64,000 nucleotides of DNA from Pseudomonadota bacterium (GCA_049323435.1 JBMOMX010000032.1:18555-82554), one strand, 5' to 3'. Counted from the first letter of the stretch, positions 4,036-29,549 are shown. Program-made: numbers and translations. Notes: generated from the sequence alone by a model not told the origin.

Positions 4036-4079
4036 CATAAGCTCCGTCAACGGAGCAATCAGCGGGAGAAAGACAAAAA

Positions 4080-4952: not shown

Positions 4953-5077
4953 CGGCGCGCTTGACCTGCTGTCAGGATTAGGCAAAGCTGCGGCAACAAT
5001 AATTGCGGGGCGTGAGCAAAAGCCCCGCTTCACATCAGCACAGGGAGGCGTCTGTAACAACAGGCGGCGCAATCAGC

Positions 5078-5950: not shown

Positions 5951-6006
5951 GCAATAATCACAATCCAGCAAGGGAGGCGTCTGCTTTGGCGGGCGGTAAA
6001 AACAGT

Positions 6007-6864
6007 ATGAAAGACGTAAAAGGCAAAGTGGCGTTTATTACCGGGGCGGCCAGCGGCATGGGCCTGGGCATGGCCCGGTCCTTCGCTGCGGCAGGCATGA
6101 AAGTGATGATCGGCGATATTGAACTGGCCCCCGCCCAGCGCGCCGTGGACGAGTTGAAAGCCAAGGGGCTGGAGGCCGCCTGTGTGCAGGTCGATGTCAC
6201 CAGTCTGGAATCGGTGCAGAACGCCGCCAAAAAAACCGTGGACACGTTCGGCAAGGTGCATGTGATCAGCAATAATGCCGGTATCGCGGTCGGCGGATAC
6301 AGTGAAACATGCAGTATCCGCAACTGGAACTGGGTGGTGGATGTCAATTTGTGGGGCGTTGTGTACGGCTTGCAGGCTTTTGTGCCGCTGATCCTGTCAC
6401 ATGGCGAAGGCGGGCATGTGATCAGCACCGCCTCGATGGCGGGCATGGTCGGGTTGCGCGGCGCGGGCCCCTATAACGCCACCAAATTTGCGGTTGTCGG
6501 CATCATGGAAACTTTCGCAGCCGACCATCGCAAGGATAATATCGGCGCATCCGTGCTGTGCCCCGGCGTGGTGGCCACCAATATCGGCAATTCAGGCCGC
6601 AACCGGCCCGATCAATATGGCGGCGCGGTTGCGCCCAACCCGCGCGACCGGACGGCGGAAATGCTGGCGCAGGGCCTTAATCCCGATATTGTCGGCGATC
6701 TGGTGCTGGAAGCCATGCAGGCCGATCAATTATATATCTTCACCGATCCAGGCCTGAAACATCTGATCGAAACCCGCTGCAAGCGTATCACCGACGCCTA
6801 TGACTGGGCCGCCAACAGCAAATCACTGAAAGGCGTGAAACAGTCAGGCCTGCTGCCGGGATAG
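6007..6864 (+). CDS. SDR family oxidoreductase, LigD/LigL-like, tandem paralog 4
   Basis: Track ORF 5986..6864; start placed at the ATG at 6007 (MKDVKGKVAFITGAASGMGLG). The upstream leader agggaggcgtctg is shared with paralog 3. Confidence 0.8.
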   Translation: MKDVKGKVAFITGAASGMGLGMARSFAAAGMKVMIGDIELAPAQRAVDELKAKGLEAACVQVDVTSLESVQNAAKKTVDTFGKVHVISNNAGIAVGGYSETCSIRNWNWVVDVNLWGVVYGLQAFVPLILSHGEGGHVISTASMAGMVGLRGAGPYNATKFAVVGIMETFAADHRKDNIGASVLCPGVVATNIGNSGRNRPDQYGGAVAPNPRDRTAEMLAQGLNPDIVGDLVLEAMQADQLYIFTDPGLKHLIETRCKRITDAYDWAANSKSLKGVKQSGLLPG

Positions 6865-7112: not shown

Positions 7113-8003
7113 ATGAAAGTCGGCTTTATCGGCATCGGCAATATGGGCGGCCCGATGTGCCGCAATATTATCAAGGGCGGCCATGATGTGACCGTGTTCG
7201 ATCTGAACCCGGCGGCGGTCAAAACATGCACCGATCTGGGCGCAAAGGCGGCGGCCTCACCCAAAGAGGTGGCGTCTCTGGTGGATGTGGTGATGACCTC
7301 GCTGCCGATGCCAAAGGATGTGGAGGCGGTGGCGCTCGGGCCAAACGGCATCATCGAGGGCATTCGTCAGGGGACGATATATATTGATCTGTCCACCAAT
7401 TCGCCGACCATGATCCGTAAAATCGCCGCCGCGTTTGCACCAAAGGGCGTGGTCACGCTGGATGCGCCGGTGTCGGGCGGCGCGATCGGCGCGGAAAAAA
7501 AGACCATCGCCATTATGGTGGGCGGCGACAAGGCGGCCTATGACCGCTGCATGCCCGTCTTTGAAAGTTTCGGGCAGAATATTTCGTTCCTGGGCGCGCT
7601 CGGCAGCGGCGCCATCGCCAAGATAGTCAATAATATGCTGGCTTTCAGCAATATGGCGTCGGCCGCCGAAGGGCTGATGCTGGGCGCTGCGGCGGGGATT
7701 GATCCCGAAGCCCTGAATGAGGTTATCCGCAACAGTTCCGGCAACAGCATGGCCTATCGCGGCGTCGCGCACAAAACGCTGAACGGCGACTGGTCGGCGA
7801 CCTTCACCATTGATCTGGCCTATAAGGATCTGCATCTGGCGCTGGAGCTGGGCGATGAGCTGGGCATCCCGCTGCCGCAGGGCGCGCAGACGCATAATCT
7901 GATGCGCATGGCGCGCGGCATGGGCTTTGGAGGTGATGACGCCACCGCGATCATGCGTGTCTATGAAAAAACACTGGGACGGGAAATACGCAAAAAAAAA
8001 TAA
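7113..8003 (+). CDS. NAD(P)-dependent oxidoreductase, 3-hydroxyisobutyrate dehydrogenase (HIBADH)/2-hydroxy-3-oxopropionate reductase family
   Basis: 296 aa; N-terminal MKVGFIGIGNMGGPM dinucleotide-binding motif, and the length and architecture of the 6PGDH-NAD-binding beta-hydroxyacid dehydrogenase family. Confidence 0.85.
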   Translation: MKVGFIGIGNMGGPMCRNIIKGGHDVTVFDLNPAAVKTCTDLGAKAAASPKEVASLVDVVMTSLPMPKDVEAVALGPNGIIEGIRQGTIYIDLSTNSPTMIRKIAAAFAPKGVVTLDAPVSGGAIGAEKKTIAIMVGGDKAAYDRCMPVFESFGQNISFLGALGSGAIAKIVNNMLAFSNMASAAEGLMLGAAAGIDPEALNEVIRNSSGNSMAYRGVAHKTLNGDWSATFTIDLAYKDLHLALELGDELGIPLPQGAQTHNLMRMARGMGFGGDDATAIMRVYEKTLGREIRKKK

Positions 8004-8018
8004 TCGCGGGGCACACAG

Positions 8019-9353
8019 GTGAACACTGATAATGGGCCGGAGAAAACCGGCCTGATCCCTGCGGATTTGCCGGTGGTGTATCGCACCGGCTATGTCCGGT
8101 ATGTCGTCGGCATACTGACCGTCGTATATGTTTTCAATTTCATGGACAGGCAGATCCTGTCGATCCTGATGCAGCCGATCAAGCAGGAAATGCAGCTTAG
8201 CGACACCGAGCTGGGCTTTCTTGGCGGGGTCGCCTTTGCCATATTTTACGCGACCCTGGGCGTGCCGATTGCACGGCTGGCGGATCAATATTCGCGGGTT
8301 AATCTGATCACCATCTGTCTGGGCCTGTGGAGCTGTATGACCGCGCTGTCGGGCCTGGCGGCGAATTTCATGCAATTGCTGGCGGCGCGCATCGGGGTGG
8401 GCATTGGCGAGGCGGGCGGCGGCCCATCATCGCATTCGCTGATTTCGGATTATGTGCCGGCCCAAAACCGCTCCACGGCGCTGGGCGTGTTTGCGCTGGG
8501 CGTGCCGATCGGGCTGATGGTGGGTTTTCTGGCGGGCGGCTGGCTCGAAGAAAATTATGGCTGGCGGGTGGCGTTTATGGCGGCGGGCATTCCGGGTCTG
8601 ATTCTCGCCGTCATTCTGCGGCTGACGGTGCGTGAACCCAAACGCGGCCATTCGTCGGGCGAGACGGACATCATCCATGCAGATCAACCCTCGATGAAGC
8701 AGGTGGCCAACCATATGCGCGCCATCCGCACCTTCCGGCTGCTGGCCATTGCCGCCGCGATGCAGGCCTTTGCGGGCTATGGCCTGATCCAGTGGCTGCC
8801 CAGCTTCCTCACCCGCAACCATCAGATGAGCAGCACGGATATCGGCTTCTGGCTGGCGATGACGATTGGCGCGGGCGGCGCGATCGGCACGATGGGCGGC
8901 GGTTATTTCGCCGATCTGCTGTCGCGTAAAAATCTGGCCTGGCAATTATGGCTGCCGGGCATAGGCAGCCTGTTGGGCGCCTTTATCTCGTTCGGCATAA
9001 TGCTTTCACCCGGCATACCGGTGCTGCTGTTTTTTGTGTTTCTGCATTCGGTGGCGGTCAATGCCTATCTCGGCCCGTCTTTTGCGGTGACGCAAACTTT
9101 GTCGCCTGTGCGGATGCGCGCGCTGGCCAGCGCGCTGCTGCTGTTCGCGATCAATATTGTTGGCCTCGGGCTTGGGCCGCAAATGGTGGGCGCGCTAAGC
9201 GATCTGCTGCGCCCGGCTTTAGGCGATGAATCGCTGCGTTACGCCATACTGGCGGGGTGCATGACCTATTTTGTGGCGGCGCTGTTTTTCGCTTTGGCGG
9301 GGCGTGCGGCGCGCGTGGATTTTGCAACTGCGGCGCGGCTGGCGGGGGATTAA
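8019..9353 (+). CDS. MFS transporter, tandem paralog 1 of 3
   Basis: 444 aa and highly hydrophobic; MFS signature around PIARLADQYSR and GVGIGEAGGGP. Collinear with the next two ORFs. Confidence 0.85.
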   Translation: MNTDNGPEKTGLIPADLPVVYRTGYVRYVVGILTVVYVFNFMDRQILSILMQPIKQEMQLSDTELGFLGGVAFAIFYATLGVPIARLADQYSRVNLITICLGLWSCMTALSGLAANFMQLLAARIGVGIGEAGGGPSSHSLISDYVPAQNRSTALGVFALGVPIGLMVGFLAGGWLEENYGWRVAFMAAGIPGLILAVILRLTVREPKRGHSSGETDIIHADQPSMKQVANHMRAIRTFRLLAIAAAMQAFAGYGLIQWLPSFLTRNHQMSSTDIGFWLAMTIGAGGAIGTMGGGYFADLLSRKNLAWQLWLPGIGSLLGAFISFGIMLSPGIPVLLFFVFLHSVAVNAYLGPSFAVTQTLSPVRMRALASALLLFAINIVGLGLGPQMVGALSDLLRPALGDESLRYAILAGCMTYFVAALFFALAGRAARVDFATAARLAGD

Positions 9354-9368
9354 CGGGGGATTGGATCA

Positions 9369-10670
9369 TTGATCAGCAAGGCGCAGACTGAATCCGGCAA
9401 TCCGGTGGTATATAGCCGGGGCTATGTCAATTATGTCATTGGCGCGCTGGCGATGGTCTATCTCGTCAATCTGACCGACCGTCAAATCCTTGCCATTCTG
9501 ATGCAGCCGATCAAGGAGGAAATGCAGCTTTCCGACACCGAGCTGGGTTTTCTGGGCGGCATCGCCTTCGCAATTTTTTATTCGACCCTCGGTCTGCCGA
9601 TTGCGCGGCTGGCGGATAAATATTCCCGCGTCAAAATTCTGTCTGTCTGTCTGGCCTTATGGAGCGTCATGACGGCGCTGTGCGGTCTGTCGTCGAATTT
9701 CTGGCAGTTGCTGGCGGCCCGCATCGGCGTGGGCGTCGGCGAGGCCGGCGGCAGCCCGCCATCGCATTCGCTGATCGCCGATTATGTTCCGGTGGAAAAG
9801 CGCGCCACCGCCATCGGTCTGTTCGCCGTCGGCGTGCCGCTTGGCCTTTTGTCGGGCTATCTGCTGGGCGGCTGGCTGGAGGAATTATATGGATGGCGGG
9901 CGGCGTTCATGGCCATCGGGCTGCCGGGCCTGATTGTGTCCCTGATTGTGTGGCTGACCGTGGAAGAGCCGCCGCGCGGAAATTCGCAGGGCGGCGTGAA
10001 GGTGCAGGCGGAAACACCGCGCATCATGGCGGTGGTGCGGCATATGTCGGCCGTGCCATCCTTTCTGCATCTATCGCTGGCGACCGCCATGCAGGGCTTC
10101 GCCACTTATGGCATCTATCAGTGGATACCCAGTTTCATGTCGCGCAGCTATCAGATGCAAAGCGGCGAAATAGGCAGCTGGCTGGCGCTGGTGATTGGCG
10201 TGAGCGGCTTTTTCGGGACTATCCTGGGCGGCTATTTCGCGGATGCCCTGTCGCGCCGCGACATGCGCTGGCAGATGTGGCTGCCGGGCCTGTGCATGTT
10301 GCTGGCGCTGCCCGCATGCCTTGGCATGTATCTTTCTTTCGGGCTGTATCTGTCCATGTTCTTTCTCGCGCTGGTGGTTTTTCTCGTGAATGTATGGCTT
10401 GGACCCGGACTGGCCATCACCCAGACGCTGGCGCCGGTGCGGATGCGCGCCATGGCCAGCGCACTGCTGCTGTTTGTGCTGAATATTATCGGCCTTGGCA
10501 TGGGGCCGCAGGCGGTCGGCATCATGAGTGATCTTCTCGCGCCCGCCTATGGCCAGGAATCGCTGCGTTATGCCCTGCTGATTTCCAGTTCTTTTTACCT
10601 TTGGTCGGCGTATCATTTCTGGAAAGCAGCTGTAACCCTGAAACCGGACCTGAAACAGGCGATAGAATAA
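9369..10670 (+). CDS. MFS transporter, tandem paralog 2
   Basis: 433 aa; the same conserved blocks (DRQILAILMQPIKEEMQLSDTELGFLGG, ARLADKYSR, GVGEAGGSPPSHSLIADYVP). The apparent start codon is TTG at 9369. Confidence 0.8.
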   Translation: MISKAQTESGNPVVYSRGYVNYVIGALAMVYLVNLTDRQILAILMQPIKEEMQLSDTELGFLGGIAFAIFYSTLGLPIARLADKYSRVKILSVCLALWSVMTALCGLSSNFWQLLAARIGVGVGEAGGSPPSHSLIADYVPVEKRATAIGLFAVGVPLGLLSGYLLGGWLEELYGWRAAFMAIGLPGLIVSLIVWLTVEEPPRGNSQGGVKVQAETPRIMAVVRHMSAVPSFLHLSLATAMQGFATYGIYQWIPSFMSRSYQMQSGEIGSWLALVIGVSGFFGTILGGYFADALSRRDMRWQMWLPGLCMLLALPACLGMYLSFGLYLSMFFLALVVFLVNVWLGPGLAITQTLAPVRMRAMASALLLFVLNIIGLGMGPQAVGIMSDLLAPAYGQESLRYALLISSSFYLWSAYHFWKAAVTLKPDLKQAIE

Positions 10671-10692
10671 ATATAATAACAAGGGGGAAAAC

Positions 10693-12021
10693 ATGACCAG
10701 CCTTGACGAGGACGGCGCCGCAACGGCCGCGCTGGTGCCCGCACATGAACCGGCGGCGCATTTCAGCAAACCCTATATCAATTATGTCATCGGCATGCTG
10801 ACGGTGGTTTATGCGGTCAATCTTATCGACCGGCAAATTCTGTCGATCCTGATGCAGCCGATCAAGCAGGAGATGCAGCTTTCCGACACGGCGCTGGGAT
10901 TTTTATCCGGCATCGCCTTTGCGATGTTTTACGCCACGCTTGGCATACCGATTGCCCGGCTGGCGGATAAAAGTTCGCGGGTGAATATTATTTCCATCAG
11001 CCTGGCGCTATGGAGCTTTATGACGGCGCTGTGCGGCGCAGCACAGAATTTCTGGCAATTGCTGGCGGCGCGCATTCTGGTCGGCGTGGGCGAGGCGGGC
11101 AGCGGGCCTTCCTCACATTCGCTGATCGCCGATTATGTGCCGCTGGAGACACGCAGCTCCGCGCTGGCGATTTATTCGCTGGGCATTCCCATCGGCATTA
11201 TGATTGGTTTTTCGGTTGGCGGCTGGCTGGAGCAGTTATATGGCTGGCGTATTGCGTTCATGGCCGTGGGTGTACCCGGTCTTATACTGGCGGTCATTGT
11301 CCGTCTGACATTGCGCGAGCCGCCGCGCGGCCATGCAGATGGCGTGGCGCGGGCGGATAAAGCCGAACAGCCGCCGCTGCGCGAAGTCGCCAGCACCATG
11401 TGGAAACGCAAATCCTTCCGTCATCTGGTGACGGCGATCGGCATTCAGGCCATTTCGGGCTATGGCGTTCTGATCTGGGTGCCAAGCTTTCTGCATCGCA
11501 GCTATCATATGACCAGCGCCGAGGTTGGCACGGCCTTGGCGCTTATTCTTGGCATTGGCGGCATCATCGGCACGGCGGCGGGCGGCTATCTGGCCGACCA
11601 TCTGGCAAAGCGCACGGTGCGCTGGCAATTATGGATACCGGCGCTGGGGGGCCTGGTGGCGGTGCCGTTTAGTTTCGGGACTTATCTTTCCGGCACAGCC
11701 TTTGCCACACTGGCCTGGTTTGCGGTGCCGATCATTTTCGCCAATCTGTATCATGGCCCGGTATTCGCCATGGCGCAGGCGCTGGCGCCGCTTAGAATGC
11801 GCGCCATGGCCGCGGCGATCCTGTTATTCATGAGCAGCTTTGTCGGCATGGGCATCGGACCGCAACTTGCGGGCATTATCAGCGATTTGCTCGCACCCGC
11901 CTATGGCGCGGATTCGCTGCGCTATGCGCTGCTGTGTATTTCCATGGCGCATATATGGTCGGCGGCGCATTTCTGGCTGGCGTCAAAAACCTTGCAGGAG
12001 GACTTGGCGATTGCGCAATAA
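10693..12021 (+). CDS. MFS transporter, tandem paralog 3
   Basis: 442 aa; same blocks, with a GGGG RBS upstream. Confidence 0.85.
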   Translation: MTSLDEDGAATAALVPAHEPAAHFSKPYINYVIGMLTVVYAVNLIDRQILSILMQPIKQEMQLSDTALGFLSGIAFAMFYATLGIPIARLADKSSRVNIISISLALWSFMTALCGAAQNFWQLLAARILVGVGEAGSGPSSHSLIADYVPLETRSSALAIYSLGIPIGIMIGFSVGGWLEQLYGWRIAFMAVGVPGLILAVIVRLTLREPPRGHADGVARADKAEQPPLREVASTMWKRKSFRHLVTAIGIQAISGYGVLIWVPSFLHRSYHMTSAEVGTALALILGIGGIIGTAAGGYLADHLAKRTVRWQLWIPALGGLVAVPFSFGTYLSGTAFATLAWFAVPIIFANLYHGPVFAMAQALAPLRMRAMAAAILLFMSSFVGMGIGPQLAGIISDLLAPAYGADSLRYALLCISMAHIWSAAHFWLASKTLQEDLAIAQ

Positions 12022-12771: not shown

Positions 12772-14010
12772 TTACAATGGCAGGCCGGTCAGCAGGCGCG
12801 GCAGGCTGCCCACCTCGCCCGCTGCGTGGCGCATGGCCAGACGGCGCAGCGGGCCGATCTGTCCAGTCAGGCCTATGCCAATATCCCGGGCCAGCCGCAC
12901 CCAGGGCGTATCATTGGAAAACAGCCGGTTGAGTATATCCGTCACCGCAGCCAGGCTGACATTGTCAAAGCGCCGCCACGCCTGATAGCGCGCCAGCACG
13001 CTAGCGGCGCCGATATCCAGCCCCAGCCGGTGCGCATCCACCAGCACCTCTGCCAATGCAGCCACGTCACGCAATCCCAGATTCAGCCCCTGTCCGGCGA
13101 TCGGATGGATCGTATGGGCTGCATCTCCCGCCAGCACCAGACGCTGCGCAACATAGTCACGGGCATGATGGAAGGATAAAGGATAGACCCAGCGCGGCCC
13201 TTCAACATGAATATCACCCCACTGGCTGCCGAAGCGGGCGCGCAATTCGGTCTCAAAATCCGCCTGCGCCAGCGCCATCAGGGCCTTGGCGCGCGCGCCG
13301 GGTTCGGTCCAGACCAGCGAGGATCGCTGTCCTGTCATGGGCAGAATTGCAAACGGCCCGCCGGGCAGAAAATATTCATGCGCCAGACCGCCATGCGGAC
13401 GGGCATGGTGCACCGTGGCCACGATGCCCGACTGGCCATAATCCCATGCGACGGACCTTATCCCAGCCCCCGCACGCAACAGGGAATCCCGGCCATCTGC
13501 GGCAATACACAAGCGTCCATAAAGCAGGCTGCCATCGGACAAACGCACGGCAATCCCGCCCGCATCCGGCACAGCCGATACGGCCCTGCTTTCGCCGCGC
13601 ACGCGAATGGCGGGCACATCGCTTATGCCCGCATGCAGGACGCTTCGAAAAAACCGGTTTTCCAGAATATAGCCGAGCGGCCCGCCGGAAATATCCCCTA
13701 CCCCGTCAAGATGATCGAAATGCAGGCTGAGCGGCGAGGCGCCCCGGCCCAGACGGCCATCACTTACCATGATATCCAGAATGGGTTGCGCCCCGCTGAC
13801 CAGTTGCGGCCAAATCCCCAGCGCGCTCATCAGCCGTACCGAGGCGCGGCCAAGCGCCGAAACCCGCCCGTCAAAAGCCGTGTCCAGCACGGTTTGCACA
13901 GGGGTTGCATCCAGCACCAGCACTGACAGTCCCGCCCGGCCCGCCGCAAGGGCAAAGCTCAGGCCAACCATGCCGCCGCCAACCAGAATGATGTCTGCAT
14001 CAAATTGCAT
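12772..14010 (-). CDS. ubiH: FAD-dependent ubiquinone biosynthesis hydroxylase, UbiH/UbiF/VisC/COQ6 family
   Basis: 412 aa; N-terminal DIILVGGGMVGLSFALA (GxGxxG FAD fold) and the full-length architecture of the aromatic-ring hydroxylase family. Confidence 0.8.
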   Translation of the reverse strand: MQFDADIILVGGGMVGLSFALAAGRAGLSVLVLDATPVQTVLDTAFDGRVSALGRASVRLMSALGIWPQLVSGAQPILDIMVSDGRLGRGASPLSLHFDHLDGVGDISGGPLGYILENRFFRSVLHAGISDVPAIRVRGESRAVSAVPDAGGIAVRLSDGSLLYGRLCIAADGRDSLLRAGAGIRSVAWDYGQSGIVATVHHARPHGGLAHEYFLPGGPFAILPMTGQRSSLVWTEPGARAKALMALAQADFETELRARFGSQWGDIHVEGPRWVYPLSFHHARDYVAQRLVLAGDAAHTIHPIAGQGLNLGLRDVAALAEVLVDAHRLGLDIGAASVLARYQAWRRFDNVSLAAVTDILNRLFSNDTPWVRLARDIGIGLTGQIGPLRRLAMRHAAGEVGSLPRLLTGLPL

Positions 14011-18918: not shown

Positions 18919-20820
18919 CTAACCCGCCTTGCGGCTCATGGCGCGGAGTGAAAAATTCGCTTCAATATAGGTGATCAGTTGCGCCATACATTCCTCGATG
19001 GAATGTTTGGCGGTATCGAGCACCAGTTCCGCAGCCGCAGGTTCTTCATAGGGGGCGGAGACGCCCGTGAATTCCTTGATCTCACCGCTGCGGGCTTTTT
19101 TATACAGACCCTTGGGATCGCGGCTTTCGCAGGTTTGCACATCCGCCTTGACATAGACTTCGTGAAAACAGCCGGGAGCAGCGGCGCGCGCCCGGTCCCG
19201 GTCGGAGCGATAGGGCGAAATAAAGGCGGTGAGCGCAATCATGCCCGCACGCGCAAACAGCGCCGCCACCTCGCCGACGCGGCGGATATTCTCGGAACGG
19301 TCTTCCGGCGAAAAGCCCAGATTGGCGTTCAAGCCGAAACGGATATTGTCGCCATCCAGCACATAGACCGAATAGCCTTTTTCAAACAGACGGCGTTCCA
19401 GCTCCACCGACAATGTGGACTTGCCCGCGCCCGACAGGCCGGTAAACCAGATTACGCCGCCGCGATGCCCGTTCATGCGGGCACGTTCCTCATCGCTGAT
19501 GCCCTGTTCAACCCGGACAATATTAGTGGCGCGCTGGGTGATCAGCTGCCGCTGATCGGCATAGCCTTCCATGGAAATGATGCCGCCTCCGGCAATGTCA
19601 TAACCATCAACCAGCACAAAGCGCCCCGTAGCGGGTTTGTCATTGAATGCATCCAGAGCCAGCATGCGCCGCGCGCGCAATATGACTTCCGCCACCTGAT
19701 TGCGTTCGACAGATACAGGTTGTGACAAAGACAGATCGCCGGTATCGATCACCGATTCGATTTTTTGCACCTGCACCTGCACTTCGCTGGTGTTCAGTTT
19801 TAGCTTGTAACTTTTTCCGGTGATCAGCGGATCATGGCCAAGCCAGAAAAGACGTGCACGGAATACATCGGTTTCAATCGGCGCATTGCGGACATGGCTG
19901 ATTGTATCGCCGCGTTCCACAAAAATCTGTTCATCAAGGGTCAGTCCAACGGAATAACCCGCCAGCGCGCGCGAGGGAGAAGCCAGCGTGTCAGGCCAGA
20001 CCTCCAGGCTTTTGACCCTGGCGGTTTTATTGGAGGGTGAAAACAGAATTTCATCGCCCACCGTAACGCGTCCCGATTCGATGCGCCCGGCAATGATCCG
20101 CCGCTCGTCGAATTTATAGACATCCTGCACCGGCAGGCGCAGCGGCAGATCGCTGGAAAGCGGTTCCGATACGAAACAGTCAAGCGCTTCCACGACTGCC
20201 GGACCCGTATACCAGTCCATCGCAGCAGAACGCCGGGTCAGATTTTCACCTTCGCGCGCCGACACCGGCAGGATAAAGGTCGGCACTACTCCCAGATCAT
20301 TCAGATAGGAGCGGAATTCCTGCGCCACTTCCTCAAAGCGCTGCTGGCTATAGCCCACCAGATCCATTTTATTGATGGCCACCGCCACCTGGCGGATGCC
20401 CAGCAGATGCAGCAGATAGCCATGCCGGCGCGACTGTTCGCGCACGCCTTCCACCGCGTCAATGATCAGCAGCGCCGCATCGCTTTGCGCCGCGCCGGTG
20501 ATCATGTTTTTCAGAAACTCCTTATGCCCCGGCGCGTCGATGATCACATAATTGCGCTTCTCGGTATTGAACCAGATTTGAGACGTGTCGATGGTAATGC
20601 CCTGATCGCGTTCGGCCTGGAGCGCGTCCATAAGAAAGGCATATTCGAACGGCATGCCGCGCCTGTCGGACATGGCCCTGATTTCTTCCACCTTGCCCTG
20701 CGGCAGCGAATTGGTGTCATGCAGCAGCCGGCCCACCAGGGTTGATTTACCATGATCCACATGCCCGACAATTACGATACGCAATAGATCGCGCACTGCG
20801 GATTGAGAAAGTTGCGTCAT
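18919..20820 (-). CDS. cysNC: bifunctional sulfate adenylyltransferase subunit 1 / adenylylsulfate kinase (CysN-CysC fusion, NodQ-like)
   Basis: 633 aa. The N-terminus is a GTPase ([28 protein letters not shown]). The C-terminus is an APS kinase ([16 protein letters not shown]...YVLDGDNIR). Confidence 0.9.
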
Positions 20821-20832
20821 TTTGCCTGGTCC

Positions 20833-21639
20833 CTACAAATAGCCGTCAGCGCGCAGGCGCTCGAAACTGTCCTCAGCCTCATGATCCATGGCGCGGCCTG
20901 CGCGTTCGGATATATTCGTCGTCTGAAGTTCTGCTATGATTTCATCAATCGTGGCGGCCTGGCTATCGACCGGGAAGGTGATGTCTTCATCGCCAAGCGA
21001 GCGATAGCGTTTGCCGTTCTTTGTATAATACAGCCCTATTGTGGGTATATTTTCGCGCTTGGTATATTGCCATATATCCAGTTCGGTCCAGTGCAGCAGC
21101 GGATGGATGCGGATATGTGTGCCAGGCGGATAATCTGTTTTGTACTGATCCCAGAATTCGGGCGGCTGATCGCGAAAATCCCATTGGCCTTCCTGCCCAC
21201 GCGGGCTGAACACCCGCTCCTTTGCCCGCGTCGCCTGTTCATCGCGCCTGATACCGGCAATCAGACCGCTGAATTGTTCGCGGTCCTGTACTTTTTTCAG
21301 ACCGGCGGTCTTACGCGCCGCCGATCGCGCAGCGGCAGGCAGGCTGGGATCCATATCCTCCAGCGGCGGGCAGGTGTCGCGGATCAGGGTCAGATTCCAT
21401 TCTTTTACATAGCGGTCGCGGAATTCATACATTTCCTTGAATTTTTTGCCCGTATCAACATGAATGACCGGAAACGGCACATGGCCGAAAAACGCCTTTT
21501 TGGCCAGCCAGATCATGACATTCGAATCCTTGCCGAGCGACCACAACATGCCGATCTTATCGAGCCGGTTGAACGCCTCGCGCAGGATGAATACGCTTTT
21601 ATTTTCCAGTTGATCCAAGTGGTTCATTTTATTTTCCAC
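20833..21639 (-). CDS. cysD: sulfate adenylyltransferase subunit 2
   Basis: 268 aa; PAPS-reductase-fold ATP-PPase motif region SLGKDSNVMIWLA and the architecture of CysD/NodP. Confidence 0.9.
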   Translation of the reverse strand: MENKMNHLDQLENKSVFILREAFNRLDKIGMLWSLGKDSNVMIWLAKKAFFGHVPFPVIHVDTGKKFKEMYEFRDRYVKEWNLTLIRDTCPPLEDMDPSLPAAARSAARKTAGLKKVQDREQFSGLIAGIRRDEQATRAKERVFSPRGQEGQWDFRDQPPEFWDQYKTDYPPGTHIRIHPLLHWTELDIWQYTKRENIPTIGLYYTKNGKRYRSLGDEDITFPVDSQAATIDEIIAELQTTNISERAGRAMDHEAEDSFERLRADGYL

Positions 21640-21751
21640 CGATTTACAGGGGTACTTTTTATATTACGCTAAATATATGCAGTATTTTGGCCGGCCGGGC
21701 AATCAAAAACCGCAAATTTCCAATCCCCGGCCGGGTTAATCGCGCAACCGC

Positions 21752-22582
21752 TCAGGGCAGATAGTCAAAACGCGCCATTTGTTCGTGATGGGCTGCAACA
21801 ATCCGGTCTATCTGCTGGCGCGACAAATGGGTTCGCCATTGCTGTTTGCGGCCCGAGCGGAAAAATGCCTGGGAAAATTCGCTGCGTTCCTTGAAGCTGG
21901 TTTTACGTTCCTGCGTCTTAAGCACATCGAATGAAGAAAATTTTATGGCCCGCCGCAAGCGGTCATTTGGCGGTGTCAATCCCAGAAAATCCGCCAGCCT
22001 GCGGAAGCTTTTATTCGGCTTGTCGAGCATATCCTCATAACGCATCAGATGCAGGCCGGGATTTTCATGCCCGGTCCAGCTTTTGACATGGGTGGACCAG
22101 TCGGAATGAAATTCAGCCGCATGGGCCGCGCTGGTTTCGGTTGCGGAACTGGGATCGCCCAGCCGCTCGATTGCCGCATCCAGACTGACGCCAAAATGAT
22201 CCGCCATGGAAATCACCACATCGAGCGGATTGCGCACCACATAGATGGCGCCCGCCGTCACTTCCATATTGTGCAGCGGAATGCCGCAGCATTCACCCAG
22301 AAAATTATGGGTTTTGACAAACACCGAATCCGGAAAGGCCTGGGTGAAATCACGGTGCACGGCGGGGCGCAGCGCCATGATTTGCGCCATTTCCAACCCC
22401 TCAAGCGGGCGGCCGGCACGTCTGGCATACCAGGCACCGGCGGATTCGCCGATGCAGAAGCGGTCAAGTTCGTTGATAGAGGCCGGCTCGGGCGGGTTGC
22501 GCAGCAGATTGAACAAAAAAGCGCGCAGCCATGTATTACCTGACTTGGGATAGGAGGCGAGCCAAATGAGAGCGCCCATCAA
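21752..22582 (-). CDS. PAPS-dependent sulfotransferase family protein (NodH-like)
   Basis: 276 aa; 5'-PSB loop YPKSGNTWLR near the N-terminus and a 3'-PB-like region. First gene of the apparent sulfotransferase-cysD-cysNC operon on the minus strand. Confidence 0.75.
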   Translation of the reverse strand: MMGALIWLASYPKSGNTWLRAFLFNLLRNPPEPASINELDRFCIGESAGAWYARRAGRPLEGLEMAQIMALRPAVHRDFTQAFPDSVFVKTHNFLGECCGIPLHNMEVTAGAIYVVRNPLDVVISMADHFGVSLDAAIERLGDPSSATETSAAHAAEFHSDWSTHVKSWTGHENPGLHLMRYEDMLDKPNKSFRRLADFLGLTPPNDRLRRAIKFSSFDVLKTQERKTSFKERSEFSQAFFRSGRKQQWRTHLSRQQIDRIVAAHHEQMARFDYLP

Positions 22583-22619: not shown

Positions 22620-22650
22620 GAAAAAGGGCAGGCCATAGCCTGCCCTTTCA
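22620..22650 (-). terminator. Rho-independent terminator downstream of the porin gene
   Basis: agggcaggc-cata-gcctgccct hairpin; on the minus-strand transcript it is followed by a U-run (the A-run at 22620..22625 on the + strand). Confidence 0.5.
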
Positions 22651-22670: not shown

Positions 22671-23882
22671 TTAGAAATCCAGCATCAGGGTAAGGGCCAG
22701 CGCCTTGTCTTCAATGCTGGCCGGGCTGATATTGCTGGCCGGTCCGGCAGCTTCGTCATCAGCAAAAGTCAGATCCGCGCTGATGGCCACTCCGGGTCCC
22801 AATTTATACTGGGCGCCGATATCAACCAGTTTAAGCTGATTGTCTCCAGGTGCGCCGCGTGTGCCATCCTGTTCGGAATTCATATAGGCAATGCCCGCCT
22901 GCCAGGGGCCGGTCGCATAGGTCACGCCGACATTCCAGGCTTCTTCGTTGCGGTCATCCCGGAACAGCGTGCCCGGACGGCCCGGAACCAGGCCGTCTGA
23001 ACCATAATAGCCCGCGCCCAGGGTCCAGCCCATGCTGGTGAAATTGGCGCCCAGGTGCCAGGCTTCCGGATCGTCGGAAATCGGCGAGGCAATGCCACGC
23101 CCTGCGGCAGTCAGGCCGAAGGATTCATGATCGCCCCAGGCATATCCCGCAGACAGTTTGATGCCGATATTCGAGAATTCGCCGACATAGCTGCCGCCCA
23201 GTTCGATAATATCTTCAACACCGCCATTGGCGTCGCTGCGCACGCCGAACGTGTTAACCCAGCCGGTTCCTGTTGCCGGATCCGAAGTGCCAAGACCGGC
23301 AGTGCCGGCAGTCGTGCCGCCGGCGACAAAGCCTGCACCAGCGCTGTCATTTGACGGGGTGTAGGACATGCCAAGCTGGAAGCCCGTCATGCGCGGGGTG
23401 AAATAGGTCACCTTGTTGGCGTCGCCCGACATTCTGATGCGGGTGGTGGTACGCGCGCTGAAACGCGAAATGTGCCAGAAAATCGGGGTGTCTACGCCAT
23501 GGGCGTCCGTCACATAGGGCGCGGTATAGGCCATTTTGAATGGCGCGCTGTCGGTGGAGCCGATTTCGCCGCGGCCCATGCCGCCTTCGAGATAGGCGAA
23601 CACTTCTTCATTGCCGAGCGCGGAACCGCCGATCTGTTCCTTGAATTCGATATTGGCGCCAACCGTTACGCCATTATCCAGCACGGTCGAGCCATTGACA
23701 TTAATTTCGACATCCTGCTTGACAGAGCTGTCGCCCGTGCCTGCCGCATCGTCATCATGCAGCACAAAAGCCGCATCGTAAAAGCCATTGATCTTCATAG
23801 AGATCGGGTCAGCGGCCAAAGCCCCGCCCATCATCAAGCCAGAGGCCACCAGTGCGGTAGTGCCATAAAGGAACGTTTTCAT
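22671..23882 (-). CDS. outer-membrane porin (alphaproteobacterial Porin_2-type)
   Basis: 403 aa; signal peptide MKTFLYGTTALVASGLMMGGALA, Gly/Thr/Ser/Ala-rich beta-barrel composition, and a C-terminal ...LTLMLDF aromatic terminus. Confidence 0.75.
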   Translation of the reverse strand: MKTFLYGTTALVASGLMMGGALAADPISMKINGFYDAAFVLHDDDAAGTGDSSVKQDVEINVNGSTVLDNGVTVGANIEFKEQIGGSALGNEEVFAYLEGGMGRGEIGSTDSAPFKMAYTAPYVTDAHGVDTPIFWHISRFSARTTTRIRMSGDANKVTYFTPRMTGFQLGMSYTPSNDSAGAGFVAGGTTAGTAGLGTSDPATGTGWVNTFGVRSDANGGVEDIIELGGSYVGEFSNIGIKLSAGYAWGDHESFGLTAAGRGIASPISDDPEAWHLGANFTSMGWTLGAGYYGSDGLVPGRPGTLFRDDRNEEAWNVGVTYATGPWQAGIAYMNSEQDGTRGAPGDNQLKLVDIGAQYKLGPGVAISADLTFADDEAAGPASNISPASIEDKALALTLMLDF

Positions 23883-28133: not shown

Positions 28134-29549
28134 ATGATTGTCAAAGGCGCAAGTTTGGAACAATTATTGAAGCGCCCGGCCAGCGCCCTTCGCGCCGTGC
28201 TGTTTTATGGACCCAATGAGGGGCGTGTCCGGGAACATGCCCAGCGCGTGACCCAGGCGATTGTCGCGGATATACATGACCCGTTTCGCATTGCCAATCT
28301 GACCGGAGCCGCGCTTAAGGAAGATCCTGCACTTCTGGGTGATGAGGCGGCTGCGATTGCCATGACCGGCGGGCGCCGGGTAATACGCCTGAGCGGGGCC
28401 GGGGATGCCCTGCTTCCGGCATTTCTGAATTTTCTGCAAGACCCCAAAGGCGATTCGCTGATCGTCATGGAGGCGGGAGCACTGACCAAAACCTCCAAAT
28501 TGCGCAAAACTTTTGAGGACAGTCCGTTATGCGCAATCGCTGCCTGTTATGAAGACAGTGCAGCCGATCTGTCGGCAATGGTCACTGATCACTTGGCGCA
28601 GAACGGGCTGAGGATTACTTCAGATGCTAAGGACTATCTGCTGCAATGTTTGGGCGAAGACCGCATGGCCAGCCGACAGGAACTGGACAAGCTGGTTTTA
28701 TATAAGGGATTTTGGACACGCCAACGGAACAGTAGAGATATCAAAGATGTCATGGCAGGCGTCGGTAGCCAGGATACCGGCGATATCCCAGGTATCGGAG
28801 ATATACCTGACACAATAGATAGCCATGATGGCGCAGATATCCTGGCTATCGCGGATAGCAGAGGTATCACCGGTACCAATACTATCCTGGATTGCACGGA
28901 TATCCATGATGCCATAGCTATCGCAGATGTCTTAGAGACCCCTGACATCAGGGGTATAAAAGATACCGGCGGTATCATGGATGTCCATGACCGCTCTGAT
29001 AGCCATGATAGCTCTGATAGCCATGATGGCCATGATGGCTATGATGGCCATGATCTCCGGCATGGCATGGCGTCCAAGGATAATCTGGTGCGCTTGCAGG
29101 ATGTGCAGGCCTGTATTGGCGATGGTGCCGTTCACAGTCTCGATGAAATTTGTGACTGCCTGTGTCTGGGCGATCCTGAAGCGCTGGATGCGCATATTCA
29201 GCGCGCTTTTGCGGGCGGGGTTTCCCCTATCACTATCTTGCGTGCGCTCAGCACCCATCTGATGAAACTGCAACTGGTACTCGCGGCGCAGGCGAAGGGC
29301 AGTTCTGCCGATATGGCGCTGCGGGTGCTGCGGCCGCCTTTGCATTTCTCAAGAATCACGGCATTCCGCCGCATGCTGCCTATGTGGAATACGCAGTTGG
29401 CCGCACATGCGCTGGAACAGGTGCTGCGGACCGAGGCGGCCTGTAAAACCACCGGCGCACCGGATTTCAGCCTGTGCAGCCAGGCCCTGCTTCAGCTGGC
29501 GCATCTGCCGCGCCGCGCCCGGACGGCCCCCCCGGCCGGGCTGAGTTAA
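28134..29549 (+). CDS. holA: DNA polymerase III subunit delta, carrying a ~120-aa low-complexity D/H/I/G-rich insertion
   Basis: The N-terminal ~195 aa and the C-terminal ~150 aa align with HolA architecture (LRAVLFYGPNEG..., C-terminal helical domain). The protein is 471 aa against a typical length of about 340 aa. The excess is a repeat-encoded segment at roughly 28725..29085. Confidence 0.75.
   Translation: MIVKGASLEQLLKRPASALRAVLFYGPNEGRVREHAQRVTQAIVADIHDPFRIANLTGAALKEDPALLGDEAAAIAMTGGRRVIRLSGAGDALLPAFLNFLQDPKGDSLIVMEAGALTKTSKLRKTFEDSPLCAIAACYEDSAADLSAMVTDHLAQNGLRITSDAKDYLLQCLGEDRMASRQELDKLVLYKGFWTRQRNSRDIKDVMAGVGSQDTGDIPGIGDIPDTIDSHDGADILAIADSRGITGTNTILDCTDIHDAIAIADVLETPDIRGIKDTGGIMDVHDRSDSHDSSDSHDGHDGYDGHDLRHGMASKDNLVRLQDVQACIGDGAVHSLDEICDCLCLGDPEALDAHIQRAFAGGVSPITILRALSTHLMKLQLVLAAQAKGSSADMALRVLRPPLHFSRITAFRRMLPMWNTQLAAHALEQVLRTEAACKTTGAPDFSLCSQALLQLAHLPRRARTAPPAGLS
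28725..29085. repeat. degenerate in-frame coding minisatellite inside holA (gatatc / gatagccat / gatggccat units)
   Basis: AT-richer than the flanks. Repeated GATATC and (gat[ag]gc[ct]atgat) units encode ...DIPGIGDIPDTIDSHD...SDSHDSSDSHDGHDGYDGHD. All six frames stay open across it, the usual signature of a simple repeat. Confidence 0.7.

What the first reader, a model, noticed from the sequence alone, without database searches (positions are those of the whole stretch)
18919..22582. nodH/nodPQ-like cassette: sulfotransferase-cysD-cysNC operon next to a porin gene
A PAPS-dependent sulfotransferase (YPKSGNTW 5'-PSB loop) is the first gene of an operon with cysD and a fused cysN-cysC. That makes a self-contained PAPS-synthesis plus sulfate-transfer module, the same logic as rhizobial nodH-nodPQ or the lpsS-type LPS sulfation modules. 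Outside rhizobia, such modules sulfate LPS, capsule or lipids. The substrate here is unknown. Adjacency to an outer-membrane porin and a lipoprotein hints at cell-envelope modification.
Basis: partly seen in the sequence, partly recalled or inferred. Interest (0 to 1): 0.55.

Follow-up and report, generated by a model that had tools for sequence, protein, structure and literature searches.

The report
Porin-linked sulfotransferase beside PAPS-synthesis genes
An alphaproteobacterial chromosome carries an intact, uncharacterised SULT-like sulfotransferase next to the genes that make its sulfate donor PAPS, a known kind of module, but across relatives the enzyme's constant partner is the outer-membrane porin gene just upstream, not the PAPS genes.

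Summary
On the minus strand lie a Porin_4 porin (22671-23882), a strong terminator hairpin, a PF00685 sulfotransferase (21752-22579), cysD (20833-21627) and a fused cysN-cysC (18919-20820). All are intact and under purifying selection.

The logic of PAPS supply beside a PAPS user holds, but there is no homology to nodH/nodPQ or to LpsS/Stf0. The enzyme is of the cytosolic-SULT/StaL/Teg12 type. NodH matches it only at 22% over 76 residues, and NodP and NodQ are 35-38% identical to CysD and CysNC.

A single operon is not established. A conserved promoter-like element lies in the 124-nt gap before cysD.

CysD is a 264-aa short form that is widespread in Alphaproteobacteria. Elsewhere it sits in polysaccharide, NRPS or sulfotransferase contexts, but in Niveispirillum it sits inside a classical cysG-cysI-cysH assimilation operon. 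So it need not be a dedicated copy.

In 82 related loci, the sulfotransferase's conserved partner is a porin directly upstream. The pair is separated by a terminator and is duplicated as a 2-kb unit in some genomes.

The acceptor remains unknown. I rate this a new variant of a known kind, of moderate interest.

The parts
22671..23882 (-). Outer-membrane porin (403 aa). It has a signal peptide MKTFLYGTTALVASGLMMGGALA and a C-terminal Phe. It lies directly upstream of the sulfotransferase on the same strand.
   Evidence: - Pfam Porin_4 E 9e-37.
- A same-strand porin lies directly upstream of 32 of 96 non-edge ST genes in related loci.
- The signal peptide and terminal F are conserved in the alignment of 32 ST-linked porins.
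- dN/dS 0.14 against the 83% relative.
22621..22648 (-). Intrinsic-terminator hairpin after the porin gene: AAAGGGCAGGC-TATG-GCCTGCCCTTTTT. Only about 40 nt remain before the ST start codon.
   Evidence: - Spacer MFE -36.3 kcal/mol, z = -3.84, and 0 of 200 shuffles fold as well.
- An equivalent GC hairpin plus U tract is visible in most of the porin-ST spacers printed.
- The consensus scan did not list it. It is read directly.
21752..22579 (-). PAPS-dependent sulfotransferase (275 aa), cytosolic-SULT/StaL type, with no signal peptide.
- 5'-PSB loop YPKSGNTW (residues 10-17).
- KTH with His91.
- 3'-PB motif RNPLD(116-120)...S124.
- FFRSGRKQQW (residues 239-248).
   Evidence: - Pfam PF00685 107.9 bits.
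- The motif residues are invariant in an 18-sequence alignment with 67% mean column identity.
- AF2 model pLDDT 86.8. Top Foldseek hits are SULT1A/2A, retinol dehydratase and Teg12, TM 0.63-0.67.
- PDB sequence hits are Teg12, Teg14, StaL and SULTs.
- dN/dS 0.10.
21628..21751 (-). ST-cysD spacer (124 nt).
- An imperfect 45-nt palindrome at 21691-21735.
- An AT-rich block at 21641-21690 (..GCATATATTTAGCGTAATATAAA..CTGTAAA..) that is conserved with the 83% relative.
- A likely separate promoter and leader for cysD-cysNC.
   Evidence: - The fold is not better than shuffles, z = -1.2.
- Comparison with L092 shows a conserved TTTAGCGTRATATAA...CTGTAAA...GTGGRAAATAAAATG. L092 has TGATATAAT, a perfect extended -10.
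- That this is a promoter is inferred, not shown.
20833..21627 (-). CysD, the small subunit of sulfate adenylyltransferase. This is a short 264-aa form that lacks about 32 residues present in canonical CysD.
   Evidence: - PAPS_reduct E 1.3e-34.
- NF003587 349 bits against a cut-off of 195, but below the equivalog cut-offs NF009214 and TIGR02039.
- The alignment to 1ZUN_A skips chain residues 232-263.
- Homologues 73-96% identical are widespread in Alphaproteobacteria.
18919..20820 (-). CysN-CysC fusion (633 aa): the GTPase subunit of ATP sulfurylase plus APS kinase. Its start lies 12 nt after the cysD stop.
   Evidence: - GTP_EFTU E 1.4e-47 and APS_kinase E 2e-66.
- TIGR02034 is above its cut-off. 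NF004035 scores 634.8 against 715, just below.
- Motifs present: [47 protein letters not shown].

Best explanation
This is a sulfation locus made of two adjacent functional units.

(1) Porin and sulfotransferase. A porin gene ends in a strong terminator and is followed by a cytoplasmic PAPS-dependent O-sulfotransferase of the cytosolic-SULT/StaL type. The ST is probably transcribed at a low level by read-through of the porin terminator.

(2) cysD-cysNC. These two genes are translationally close and probably have their own promoter. They activate sulfate to APS (CysD plus the CysN GTPase) and phosphorylate it to PAPS (CysC domain). PAPS is the ST's obligatory donor.

The ST transfers the sulfuryl group of PAPS to a hydroxyl group, less likely an amine, of an unknown acceptor. 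His91 acts as base, and Lys12 and Ser124 hold the donor. The fold points to a small hydroxylated molecule or a peptide phenol, not a Nod-factor or LPS-type glycan.

The ST belongs to a large uncharacterised family. In Alphaproteobacteria the conserved partner of that family is the porin, so the acceptor or product probably crosses the outer membrane through it.

The cysD-cysNC pair is the common alphaproteobacterial short type. It most likely also serves as the cell's general sulfate-activation system rather than being a nodPQ-like spare copy.

Shown: gene identities, catalytic motifs, fold, synteny and terminator geometry.
Inferred: read-through transcription, the cysD promoter, functional coupling to the porin, and the class of acceptor.
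For: Enzymology
- Pfam and NCBIfam scores.
- Invariant catalytic motifs.
- AF2 model and Foldseek hits.
- PDB sequence hits to Teg12, StaL and SULTs.
- Purifying selection on all four genes.
- Host-like GC3.

Porin link
- The same DUF3576|porin-ST|TENI-yggS order occurs in Parvibaculum lavamentivorans DS-1 without cysDNC.
- 32 of 96 ST genes have a same-strand porin directly upstream, and 16 more follow another ST in a tandem array.
- Porin-plus-ST is duplicated as a whole 2-kb block, three times in L077 and twice in L080. The copies are 65-88% identical at nucleotide level and lie next to integrases, outside the leuS-yggS region.
- In L077 and L080 only about 20 nt separate the terminator from the ST start. 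That leaves no room for a promoter.

PAPS link
- ST-cysD-cysNC-(TENI)-yggS occurs in three separate ST clades.
- It is kept in the 83% and 76% relatives.
- The APS-kinase motifs are intact.

cysDNC as a general type
- Homologues 73-80% identical occur across Alphaproteobacteria in varied contexts.
- One context is a cysG-cysI-cysH-cysD-cysNC operon. Its CysH carries the CC...CXXC motif of APS reductases.
Against: - No acceptor, expression data or biochemistry exist. No paper on this family was found.
- Much of the porin-ST adjacency lies inside a deeply conserved ori-proximal synteny block (parB|holA-lptE-leuS-DUF3576|...|yggS). Part of it may therefore be inherited gene order rather than selected linkage.
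- Some family members have no porin: Parvularculales L093, and many Gammaproteobacteria, where TonB-dependent receptors and TPR-sulfotransferases are the neighbours instead.
- Rhizobiales bacterium NRL2 has cysD-cysNC at the same locus with a porin fragment but no ST. So cysDNC may be there for positional, not functional, reasons.
- The short cysDNC type is often found in accessory sulfation contexts: Skermanella and Roseomonas plasmids, and Kiloniellales polysaccharide clusters. This leaves room for a dedicated role.
- The promoter before cysD and the terminator read-through are sequence inferences only.
Confidence: 0.6

Rival explanations
1. This is a dedicated nodH/nodPQ-like cassette. cysD-cysNC is a second copy reserved for sulfation, and the ST sulfates an envelope glycan such as LPS, capsule or a glycolipid.
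For: - The short cysD-cysNC type sits in polysaccharide clusters in Pelagibius and Kiloniellaceae.
- It sits next to sugar-nucleotide epimerases and glmU/glmS in Parvibaculum and Tepidicaulis.
- It sits on Skermanella plasmids beside a sulfotransferase and glycosyltransferases.
- Envelope genes (porin, lptE, DUF3576 lipoprotein) flank the ST.
- The alphaproteobacterial CysH examined is the APS-reductase type. The kinase domain is therefore needed only for sulfation (plus established knowledge of the CC...CXXC motif).
Against: - The ST is not of the NodH or LpsS/Stf0 families.
- Its fold matches small-molecule SULTs and glycopeptide-phenol sulfotransferases.
- There are no glycosyltransferase, Wzx/Wzy or export genes anywhere in the 64-kb window.
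- The same cysD type is assimilatory in Niveispirillum. There it is the canonical cysDN that sits with the polysaccharide sulfotransferase.
- The orthologous ST in Parvibaculum works without an adjacent cysDNC.
Confidence: 0.15
2. The adjacency is incidental. cysD-cysNC is simply the housekeeping assimilatory operon parked in a conserved ori-proximal region. The ST is functionally unrelated beyond using cellular PAPS, as any sulfotransferase does.
For: - An own promoter-like element and a 124-302-nt spacer precede cysD.
- NRL2 has cysD-cysNC at the same locus without the ST.
- Most ST family members have no cysDNC beside them.
- The whole region is strongly syntenic housekeeping DNA.
- In Niveispirillum this cysD type is part of an assimilatory operon.
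Against: - The order ST-cysD-cysNC persists between STs only 48% identical, in three ST clades.
- The short cysDNC recurs next to other sulfotransferases and sulfation-type clusters.
- A PAPS user beside a PAPS maker is an arrangement known to be functional elsewhere, for example BT_0411-0416 (PMC9417993).
Confidence: 0.2
3. The acceptor is a protein. The ST sulfates tyrosine or another hydroxyl on the neighbouring porin precursor, or on another exported peptide, in the cytoplasm before export. Each porin-ST pair would then be an enzyme-substrate pair.
For: - Porin and ST are duplicated and diverge together as units.
- The spacing and terminator architecture are conserved.
- The closest solved bacterial relatives by sequence (Teg12, Teg14, StaL) sulfate phenolic hydroxyls on peptides.
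- TPR-containing sulfotransferases and methyltransferases, whose TPR domains suggest macromolecular substrates, recur nearby.
- RaxST/RaxX is a precedent for cytoplasmic tyrosine sulfation before export (PMC4646787, listed).
Against: - The alignment of 32 ST-linked porins shows only generic beta-barrel positions and no acidic Tyr motif.
- Arrays of up to four STs follow a single porin.
- Some STs have no porin nearby.
- No case of a sulfated porin is known to me (own knowledge).
- Co-duplication is equally expected for any two adjacent genes.
Confidence: 0.04
4. The ST runs in reverse as a sulfur-scavenging device. Aryl or alkyl sulfate esters enter through the porin, and the ST transfers their sulfate to PAP to make PAPS. 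This feeds the same pool as CysDNC.
For: - Cytosolic aryl sulfotransferases catalyse the reverse reaction with aryl sulfates. This is used in PAPS regeneration systems (established knowledge; PMC10638397, listed, was not read).
- The locus links a porin with sulfate-activation genes.
Against: - The one alphaproteobacterial CysH examined is the APS-reductase type, so PAPS is not on the assimilation route.
- There is no inner-membrane transporter for sulfate esters at the locus.
- Bacteria normally use sulfatases for this purpose (own knowledge).
Confidence: 0.01

Closest known systems
Sinorhizobium meliloti NodH with NodP/NodQ (Nod-factor sulfation)
   Same: - The logic is the same: a PAPS-dependent sulfotransferase encoded within a few kb of a CysD-like and a CysN-CysC-like pair that supply PAPS.
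- Both are P-loop sulfotransferases of the same superfamily.
   Different: - NodH scores best with Pfam Sulfotransfer_3 (46.8 bits). Against this ST it gives 22% identity over 76 residues (E 0.006) and an hhalign probability of 13.7%.
- NodP1 is 34.7% and NodQ1 37.6% identical to CysD and CysNC. NodP is the long canonical form.
- The nod genes lie on a symbiosis megaplasmid. This locus is chromosomal and origin-proximal, with a porin partner.
- The ST hit none of the 161 Sinorhizobium plasmid records that carry nodP/cysD.
Bacteroides thetaiotaomicron BT_0416 cholesterol sulfotransferase with BT_0411-0415 PAPS genes
   Same: A sulfotransferase acting on a small lipophilic hydroxyl compound is encoded next to the genes that make PAPS. 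The cluster is conserved among relatives (PMC9417993).
   Different: - Different phylum.
- That cluster includes a putative sulfate importer (BT_0412) and no porin.
- The substrate there is known; here it is not.
- The sequence relationship was not tested here.
StaL, Teg12 and Teg14 glycopeptide sulfotransferases (Actinomycetota and soil eDNA)
   Same: - They are among the closest solved structures by sequence (Teg12 E 3.1e-13, Teg14 2.4e-12, StaL 1e-9) and by fold (Teg12 TM 0.57-0.69).
- The N-terminal W-ASYPK-GNTW PSB loop is shared.
   Different: - Only 22-24% identity.
- Those enzymes sit in antibiotic biosynthetic clusters and act on a heptapeptide aglycone.
- This ST sits in housekeeping DNA with a porin. 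No NRPS is nearby in the window.
Animal and plant cytosolic sulfotransferases (SULT1A1, SULT2A1, SULT1E1, SOT16/18)
   Same: - Same Pfam family (PF00685) and the same fold, TM about 0.63-0.67.
- The PSB loop, catalytic His and 3'-PB motif are shared.
   Different: - 16-22% identity.
- Bacterial, shorter (275 aa), and with a different genomic setting.
LpsS (S. meliloti LPS sulfotransferase) and Stf0 (mycobacterial trehalose sulfotransferase)
   Same: They are PAPS-dependent bacterial sulfotransferases acting on envelope molecules.
   Different: - LpsS is annotated as Stf0 family (PMC12445080).
- This ST gives no PF09037 hit at E <= 0.001.
- No Stf0 chain appears among the 49 PDB sequence hits at E <= 0.01.

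Membership tests
Pfam PF00685 Sulfotransfer_1 (cytosolic-SULT-type PAPS-dependent sulfotransferases) | Profile score above the curated cut-off over the whole domain | tested here: met
   107.9 bits against a cut-off of 22. Residues 6-272 match profile positions 4-254 of 255.
Pfam PF00685 Sulfotransfer_1 (cytosolic-SULT-type PAPS-dependent sulfotransferases) | 5'-phosphosulfate-binding loop (PKxGTTW-like) with the catalytic Lys | tested here: met
   YPKSGNTW at residues 10-17. Y10 through W17 are invariant in 18 homologues.
Pfam PF00685 Sulfotransfer_1 (cytosolic-SULT-type PAPS-dependent sulfotransferases) | Catalytic His after a beta strand, and the 3'-phosphate-binding motif (R-x-x-x-D...S) | tested here: met
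   K89, T90 and H91, and R116, N117, P118, L119, D120 and S124, are invariant or nearly invariant. The positions align with those of Teg12.
Pfam PF00685 Sulfotransfer_1 (cytosolic-SULT-type PAPS-dependent sulfotransferases) | SULT fold | tested here: met
   AF2 model pLDDT 86.8, pTM 0.86. The top 50 Foldseek PDB hits are SULTs, retinol dehydratase, Teg12 and plant SOTs, E about 1e-10, TM 0.56-0.67.
Pfam PF00685 Sulfotransfer_1 (cytosolic-SULT-type PAPS-dependent sulfotransferases) | PAPS-dependent sulfotransfer activity | not testable with these tools
   This needs an enzyme assay.
NodH / NodPQ Nod-factor sulfation system | The sulfotransferase is orthologous to NodH | tested here: not met
   Against NodH read from pSymA: BLASTP 22% over 76 aa (E 0.006), hhalign probability 13.7%. 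NodH's best Pfam family is Sulfotransfer_3. There were no ST hits on Sinorhizobium or Rhizobium plasmids.
NodH / NodPQ Nod-factor sulfation system | CysD/CysNC are specifically related to NodP/NodQ | tested here: not met
   34.7% and 37.6% identity. This is the same range as enteric and other canonical CysD, 34-39%. A 264-aa short form here against a long form there.
NodH / NodPQ Nod-factor sulfation system | Location among nodulation genes under nod-box/NodD control | tested here: not met
   The neighbours are leuS, lptE, parAB, gidAB, yggS and similar. No nod genes are in the window. The nod-box sequence itself was not searched for.
Stf0 / LpsS family (Pfam PF09037) | Match to the Stf0 profile or to the solved Stf0 structure | tested here: not met
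   No PF09037 hit at E <= 0.001. No Stf0 chain appears among the PDB sequence hits at E <= 0.01. LpsS is annotated as Stf0 family (PMC12445080).
Heterodimeric ATP sulfurylase CysD-CysN with fused APS kinase (CysNC) | CysD PP-loop domain, and the CysN GTPase G motifs | tested here: met
   PAPS_reduct E 1.3e-34. NF003587 is above its cut-off. [14 protein letters not shown] and NKMD are present. TIGR02034 scores 371 against 336.
Heterodimeric ATP sulfurylase CysD-CysN with fused APS kinase (CysNC) | Intact APS-kinase catalytic motifs in the C-terminal domain | tested here: met
   APS_kinase E 2e-66. TIGR00455 scores 252.9 against 138.7. [21 protein letters not shown] and KGLYKKAR are present.
Heterodimeric ATP sulfurylase CysD-CysN with fused APS kinase (CysNC) | Membership of the canonical (equivalog) CysD and bifunctional CysNC models | tested here: not met
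   - NF009214: 258.5 against 413.
- TIGR02039: 252.2 against 396.6.
- NF004035: 634.8 against 715.
- There is a 32-residue deletion relative to 1ZUN_A.

It is a distinct short subfamily and is still named CysD by NCBI.
Dedicated (non-assimilatory) PAPS-supply copy | A second cysDN for assimilation exists elsewhere in the same genome | not testable with these tools
   Only a 64-kb window is available. No paralogue and no cysH/I/J occur in it.

The most novel reading that the evidence does not exclude
The conserved unit is porin-terminator-sulfotransferase. It would be an undescribed outer-membrane-linked sulfo-conjugation system of Alphaproteobacteria, with TonB-dependent-receptor-linked counterparts in Lysobacterales. 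A dedicated channel and a low-level, co-transcribed SULT-like enzyme would act on the same molecule. That molecule could be a small phenolic or alcoholic compound taken up or released through the porin, which would be a bacterial analogue of phase-II conjugation or of a sulfated signal. In the boldest version it is the porin polypeptide itself. In some lineages PAPS synthesis genes were recruited alongside.
Probability: 0.15. Interest if true: 0.7.

Novelty: new variant of a known kind. Interest (0 to 1): 0.42.

Why it matters
- Sulfated bacterial metabolites are only now being recognised. Very few bacterial SULT-type enzymes have known substrates.
- This family is large: 1,043 clusters at 50% identity with E <= 1e-30.
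- It is strongly conserved, sits in core chromosomal DNA of many free-living Alphaproteobacteria, and has no assigned function.
- The recurrent pairing with an outer-membrane channel gives a concrete, testable handle on what it does.
- At least one carrier can be cultured, Parvibaculum lavamentivorans DS-1.
- The work also shows that the 264-aa short CysD type cannot be used on its own to tell assimilatory from sulfation-dedicated ATP sulfurylases.
- If the locus is just a PAPS supply beside a sulfotransferase of unknown substrate, it is an ordinary instance of a known design.

Tried and rejected
- Rfam scan of the whole window: no family reached gathering score, so there is no known riboswitch or leader in the spacers.
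- The consensus promoter/terminator scan gave nothing useful and missed the obvious porin terminator.
- Literature searches found no study of this family or of the pairing. Terms tried: sulfotransferase with porin and Alphaproteobacteria; with TonB receptor and TPR; bacterial sulfotransferase with cysDN; and Parvibaculum with sulfur genes. The Iyer and Aravind paper links other sulfotransferases to dioxygenases and TonB receptors but not to this unit.
- The porin has no sequence relative in the PDB at E <= 1.
- The alignment of 32 ST-linked porins shows only generic barrel positions and no candidate modification motif.
- The idea that the short CysD form marks a sulfation-dedicated clade was considered after the Skermanella, Roseomonas and Pelagibius contexts. 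It was rejected when the Niveispirillum copy proved to be inside cysG-cysI-cysH-cysD-cysNC.
- Recent horizontal transfer of the cassette was rejected. GC3 is 0.63-0.65, as in the neighbours.
- A pseudogene or decaying ST was rejected. dN/dS is 0.10 and the motifs are intact.
- The palindrome in the ST-cysD spacer is not a credible terminator. It has no U tract and z = -1.2.
- The last cysD context look-up (L102) showed only unannotated neighbours.

Full report
**Observation**

ORF listing and translation show four co-directional minus-strand genes:
- a 403-aa porin at 22671-23882;
- a 275-aa sulfotransferase (ST) at 21752-22579;
- a 264-aa CysD at 20833-21627;
- a 633-aa CysN-CysC fusion at 18919-20820.

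Pfam and NCBIfam assign them unambiguously:
- Porin_4, 9e-37.
- Sulfotransfer_1, 7.3e-31.
- PAPS_reduct, 1.3e-34, with the CysD subfamily model above its cut-off.
- GTP_EFTU, 1.4e-47, and APS_kinase, 2e-66, with the CysN model above its cut-off.

The gaps are 91 nt (porin to ST), 124 nt (ST to cysD) and 12 nt (cysD to cysNC). The same proteins in the same order occur on several independent metagenome contigs.

**Are the genes functional?**

- In an alignment of 18 homologues (57-83% identical to the window ST, 67% mean column identity), the PSB loop, the KTH histidine, the RNPLD...S 3'-phosphate motif and the C-terminal FFRxGxxxQW are invariant or nearly so.
- CysN has its G motifs. The CysC domain has its P-loop, DGD, LGFS, FISP and lid motifs.
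- Against the relative whose ST is 83% identical (L092), dN/dS is 0.10 for the ST, 0.05 for cysD, 0.11 for cysNC and 0.14 for the porin.
- GC3 matches the neighbours.
- So there is no sign of decay or recent transfer.

**What kind of sulfotransferase is it?**

- By sequence, the nearest solved structures are Teg12, Teg14 and StaL (the glycopeptide-phenol sulfotransferases) and the animal and plant cytosolic SULTs.
- An AlphaFold model (pLDDT 86.8) finds the same set by fold, TM 0.56-0.67.
- The ST starts directly with the PSB strand and has no signal peptide. It is therefore cytoplasmic.
- I read NodH from S. meliloti pSymA. It scores best with Sulfotransfer_3. It shares only a 76-residue, 22% identical stretch with this ST (E 0.006 for the single comparison; hhalign probability 13.7%).
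- The ST hits none of the many rhizobial plasmids that carry nodP-like genes.
- LpsS is annotated as a Stf0-family enzyme (PMC12445080). This ST matches neither the Stf0 profile nor any Stf0 chain in the PDB.
- The nodH/lpsS comparison therefore holds as an analogy of design only.

**What kind of CysD/CysNC is it?**

- CysD lacks about 32 residues present in the Pseudomonas syringae structure 1ZUN. It falls below the canonical equivalog cut-offs.
- It is 34-39% identical to NodP and to enteric CysD. It is 63-96% identical to a widespread alphaproteobacterial 264-aa form.
- I sampled where that form sits:

| Organism or group | Context of the short cysD-cysNC |
|---|---|
| Parvibaculum, Tepidicaulis | beside sugar-nucleotide epimerases; glmU-like (Tepidicaulis) and glmS genes nearby |
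| Pelagibius, a Kiloniellaceae MAG | inside polysaccharide clusters; the Kiloniellaceae one includes Wzy |
| Skermanella | on plasmids near another sulfotransferase |
| Roseomonas mucosa | directly after NRPS genes on a plasmid |
| Oceanibacterium, L102 | alone or among unknown genes |
| Rhizobiales bacterium NRL2 | at the same ori-proximal locus, after DUF3576 and a porin fragment, but with no ST |
| Niveispirillum cyanobacteriorum | inside cysE...cysG-cysI-cysH-cysD-cysNC |

- In Niveispirillum the CysH carries the CC...CXXC signature of APS reductases. The canonical cysDN of the same strain lies in a polysaccharide cluster with a sulfotransferase.
- The short type is therefore not diagnostic. 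It can be the assimilatory enzyme, the PAPS supplier, or both.
- Whether the window's organism has another copy cannot be decided from 64 kb. The rest of the window holds origin-proximal housekeeping genes and no cysH/I/J or glycan genes.

**Is it one operon?**

- cysD and cysNC are 12 nt apart.
- The ST-cysD spacer holds a 45-nt palindrome that is not significant against shuffles (z = -1.2).
- It also holds an AT-rich block conserved with L092. In L092 that block reads TGATATAAT, an extended -10. I infer a separate cysD promoter.
- Upstream, the porin gene ends in a 12-bp GC hairpin with a U tract (z = -3.8). About 40 nt remain before the ST start.
- So the ST is not clearly the first gene of anything. 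It probably depends on read-through from the porin.

**The wider picture**

I fetched 80 genomic loci with ST homologues (42-72% identical). I mapped the window's proteins onto them, together with HMMs of the ST and the porin.

- In Parvibaculales, Rhodospirillales, Kiloniellales, Sneathiella and other Alphaproteobacteria the order is parB|holA-lptE-leuS-DUF3576|porin-ST(1-4 copies)|(TENI)-yggS.
- P. lavamentivorans DS-1 has exactly this order and no cysDNC there.
- Of 96 ST genes not at a contig edge, 32 have a same-strand porin directly upstream, usually 80-200 nt away. Another 16 follow another ST in an array.
- Pairs also occur outside this block. In L077 there are three and in L080 two. 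The whole 2-kb porin-plus-ST unit is duplicated at 65-88% nucleotide identity, next to phage-type integrases.
- Most of the spacers printed carry a terminator hairpin. In L077 and L080 only about 20 nt follow it before the ST start, so read-through is the only plausible way to transcribe the ST there.
- In Gammaproteobacteria the neighbours are instead TonB-dependent receptors, TPR-sulfotransferases and methyltransferases.
- ST-cysD-cysNC occurs in three separate ST clades, always in the same order before TENI/yggS. It is kept in the window's closest relatives. This is either an old arrangement lost elsewhere or a repeated gain.

**Most likely mechanism**

- CysD and CysN make APS from sulfate and ATP, driven by GTP hydrolysis.
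- The CysC domain makes PAPS.
- The cytoplasmic ST transfers the sulfuryl group to a hydroxyl of an unknown acceptor.
- The fold and the nearest relatives favour a small hydroxylated molecule or a peptide phenol.
- The porin linkage suggests that the acceptor or the product passes the outer membrane through that channel.
- The porin is expressed strongly and the ST weakly, from the same promoter.
- I put 0.6 on this overall picture. The enzymology is nearly certain, the coupling to the porin is moderately supported, and the acceptor is open.

Rivals:
- Dedicated nodPQ-like copy for envelope-glycan sulfation: 0.15.
- Incidental adjacency of a housekeeping cysDNC: 0.2.
- Protein (porin) sulfation: 0.04.
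- Reverse-direction sulfate scavenging: 0.01.

**Comparison and novelty**

- A PAPS supply beside a sulfotransferase is a known design. Examples are nodPQ-nodH and Bacteroides BT_0411-0416 (PMC9417993).
- The ST is a clear member of PF00685. It belongs to a large subfamily with 1,043 50%-identity clusters at E <= 1e-30. I found no published function for it.
- The conserved, co-duplicating porin-terminator-ST unit is, as far as I could find, undescribed.
- I rate the finding a new variant of a known kind, interest 0.42.
- If the porin-ST unit proves to be a functional outer-membrane-linked sulfo-conjugation system (probability about 0.15), it would deserve about 0.7.

Noticed in passing
window 3178-6864, 7113-8003, 8019-12021 and 12772-14010: Four tandem paralogous short-chain dehydrogenases (285-315 aa each) are followed by a 3-hydroxyisobutyrate-dehydrogenase-like gene and three tandem MFS transporters. 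A FAD monooxygenase and two ABM-domain genes lie nearby. This looks like an amplified catabolic or transport cluster.
   Followed up: no
window 44541-44878: This is an AT-rich 337-bp intergenic region upstream of hemE. It lies near the minimum of cumulative GC skew, at about 46 kb. It has a DnaA-box-like TTTTCCACA and repeated GATTCACAG motifs. It is probably the chromosomal origin, as in other Alphaproteobacteria where oriC lies beside hemE. gidAB, parAB, mnmE and rho are nearby.
   Followed up: partly
window 46700-48175 and 52355-53488: There are two low-GC islets (0.49 and 0.50, against about 0.58 elsewhere). One holds an AAA_14/DUF4143 ATPase inserted between aroE and coaE. The other holds a Fic/DOC protein. 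They are probably small insertions into housekeeping DNA.
   Followed up: no
L005 13812-15722; L093 5282-7048; L037 756-5243; L055, L056, L060, L065, L066 and L073: TPR-Sulfotransfer_3 proteins of about 600 aa recur a few genes from the ST in Alphaproteobacteria, in the order yggS-YkuD-x-TPR-ST-response regulator. In Lysobacterales they occur in multi-copy arrays with TonB-dependent receptors and methyltransferases. L037 has a 904-aa TPR-methyltransferase directly before ST-cysD-cysNC. None of these is present in the window.
   Followed up: partly
L077 1-12050; L080 1200-12050: The porin-plus-ST 2-kb units are present three times in L077 and twice in L080, at 65-88% nucleotide identity. They have a constant spacer of about 80 nt and lie beside phage-type integrase genes. 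This suggests the pair can move or amplify as a block.
   Followed up: partly
L095 (Niveispirillum CP025613.1 900751-917542) and L096 (CP025615.1 75554-104444): One strain carries both CysD types with contexts opposite to what one might expect. The short form sits in cysG-cysI-cysH-cysD-cysNC. The canonical form sits in a plasmid polysaccharide cluster with a Sulfotransfer_1 gene.
   Followed up: yes
window 28134-29549: A 471-aa ORF sits between lptE and parB, where holA is expected. It has no Pfam match. Equally unannotated ORFs of 343-468 aa occupy the same place in all relatives.
   Followed up: no
window 21691-21735: A 45-nt imperfect palindrome (CCGGCCGGGGATTGGAAATTT...GATTGCCCGGCCGG) lies in the ST-cysD spacer. 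It has no U tract and is not significant against shuffles. Its role is unknown. The metagenome copy L001 differs in it by one base.
   Followed up: partly
L102 4048-9118: Three tandem ORFs of about 515 aa with no Pfam hits follow a short-type cysD-cysNC. An NTP-transferase gene comes after them.
   Followed up: no
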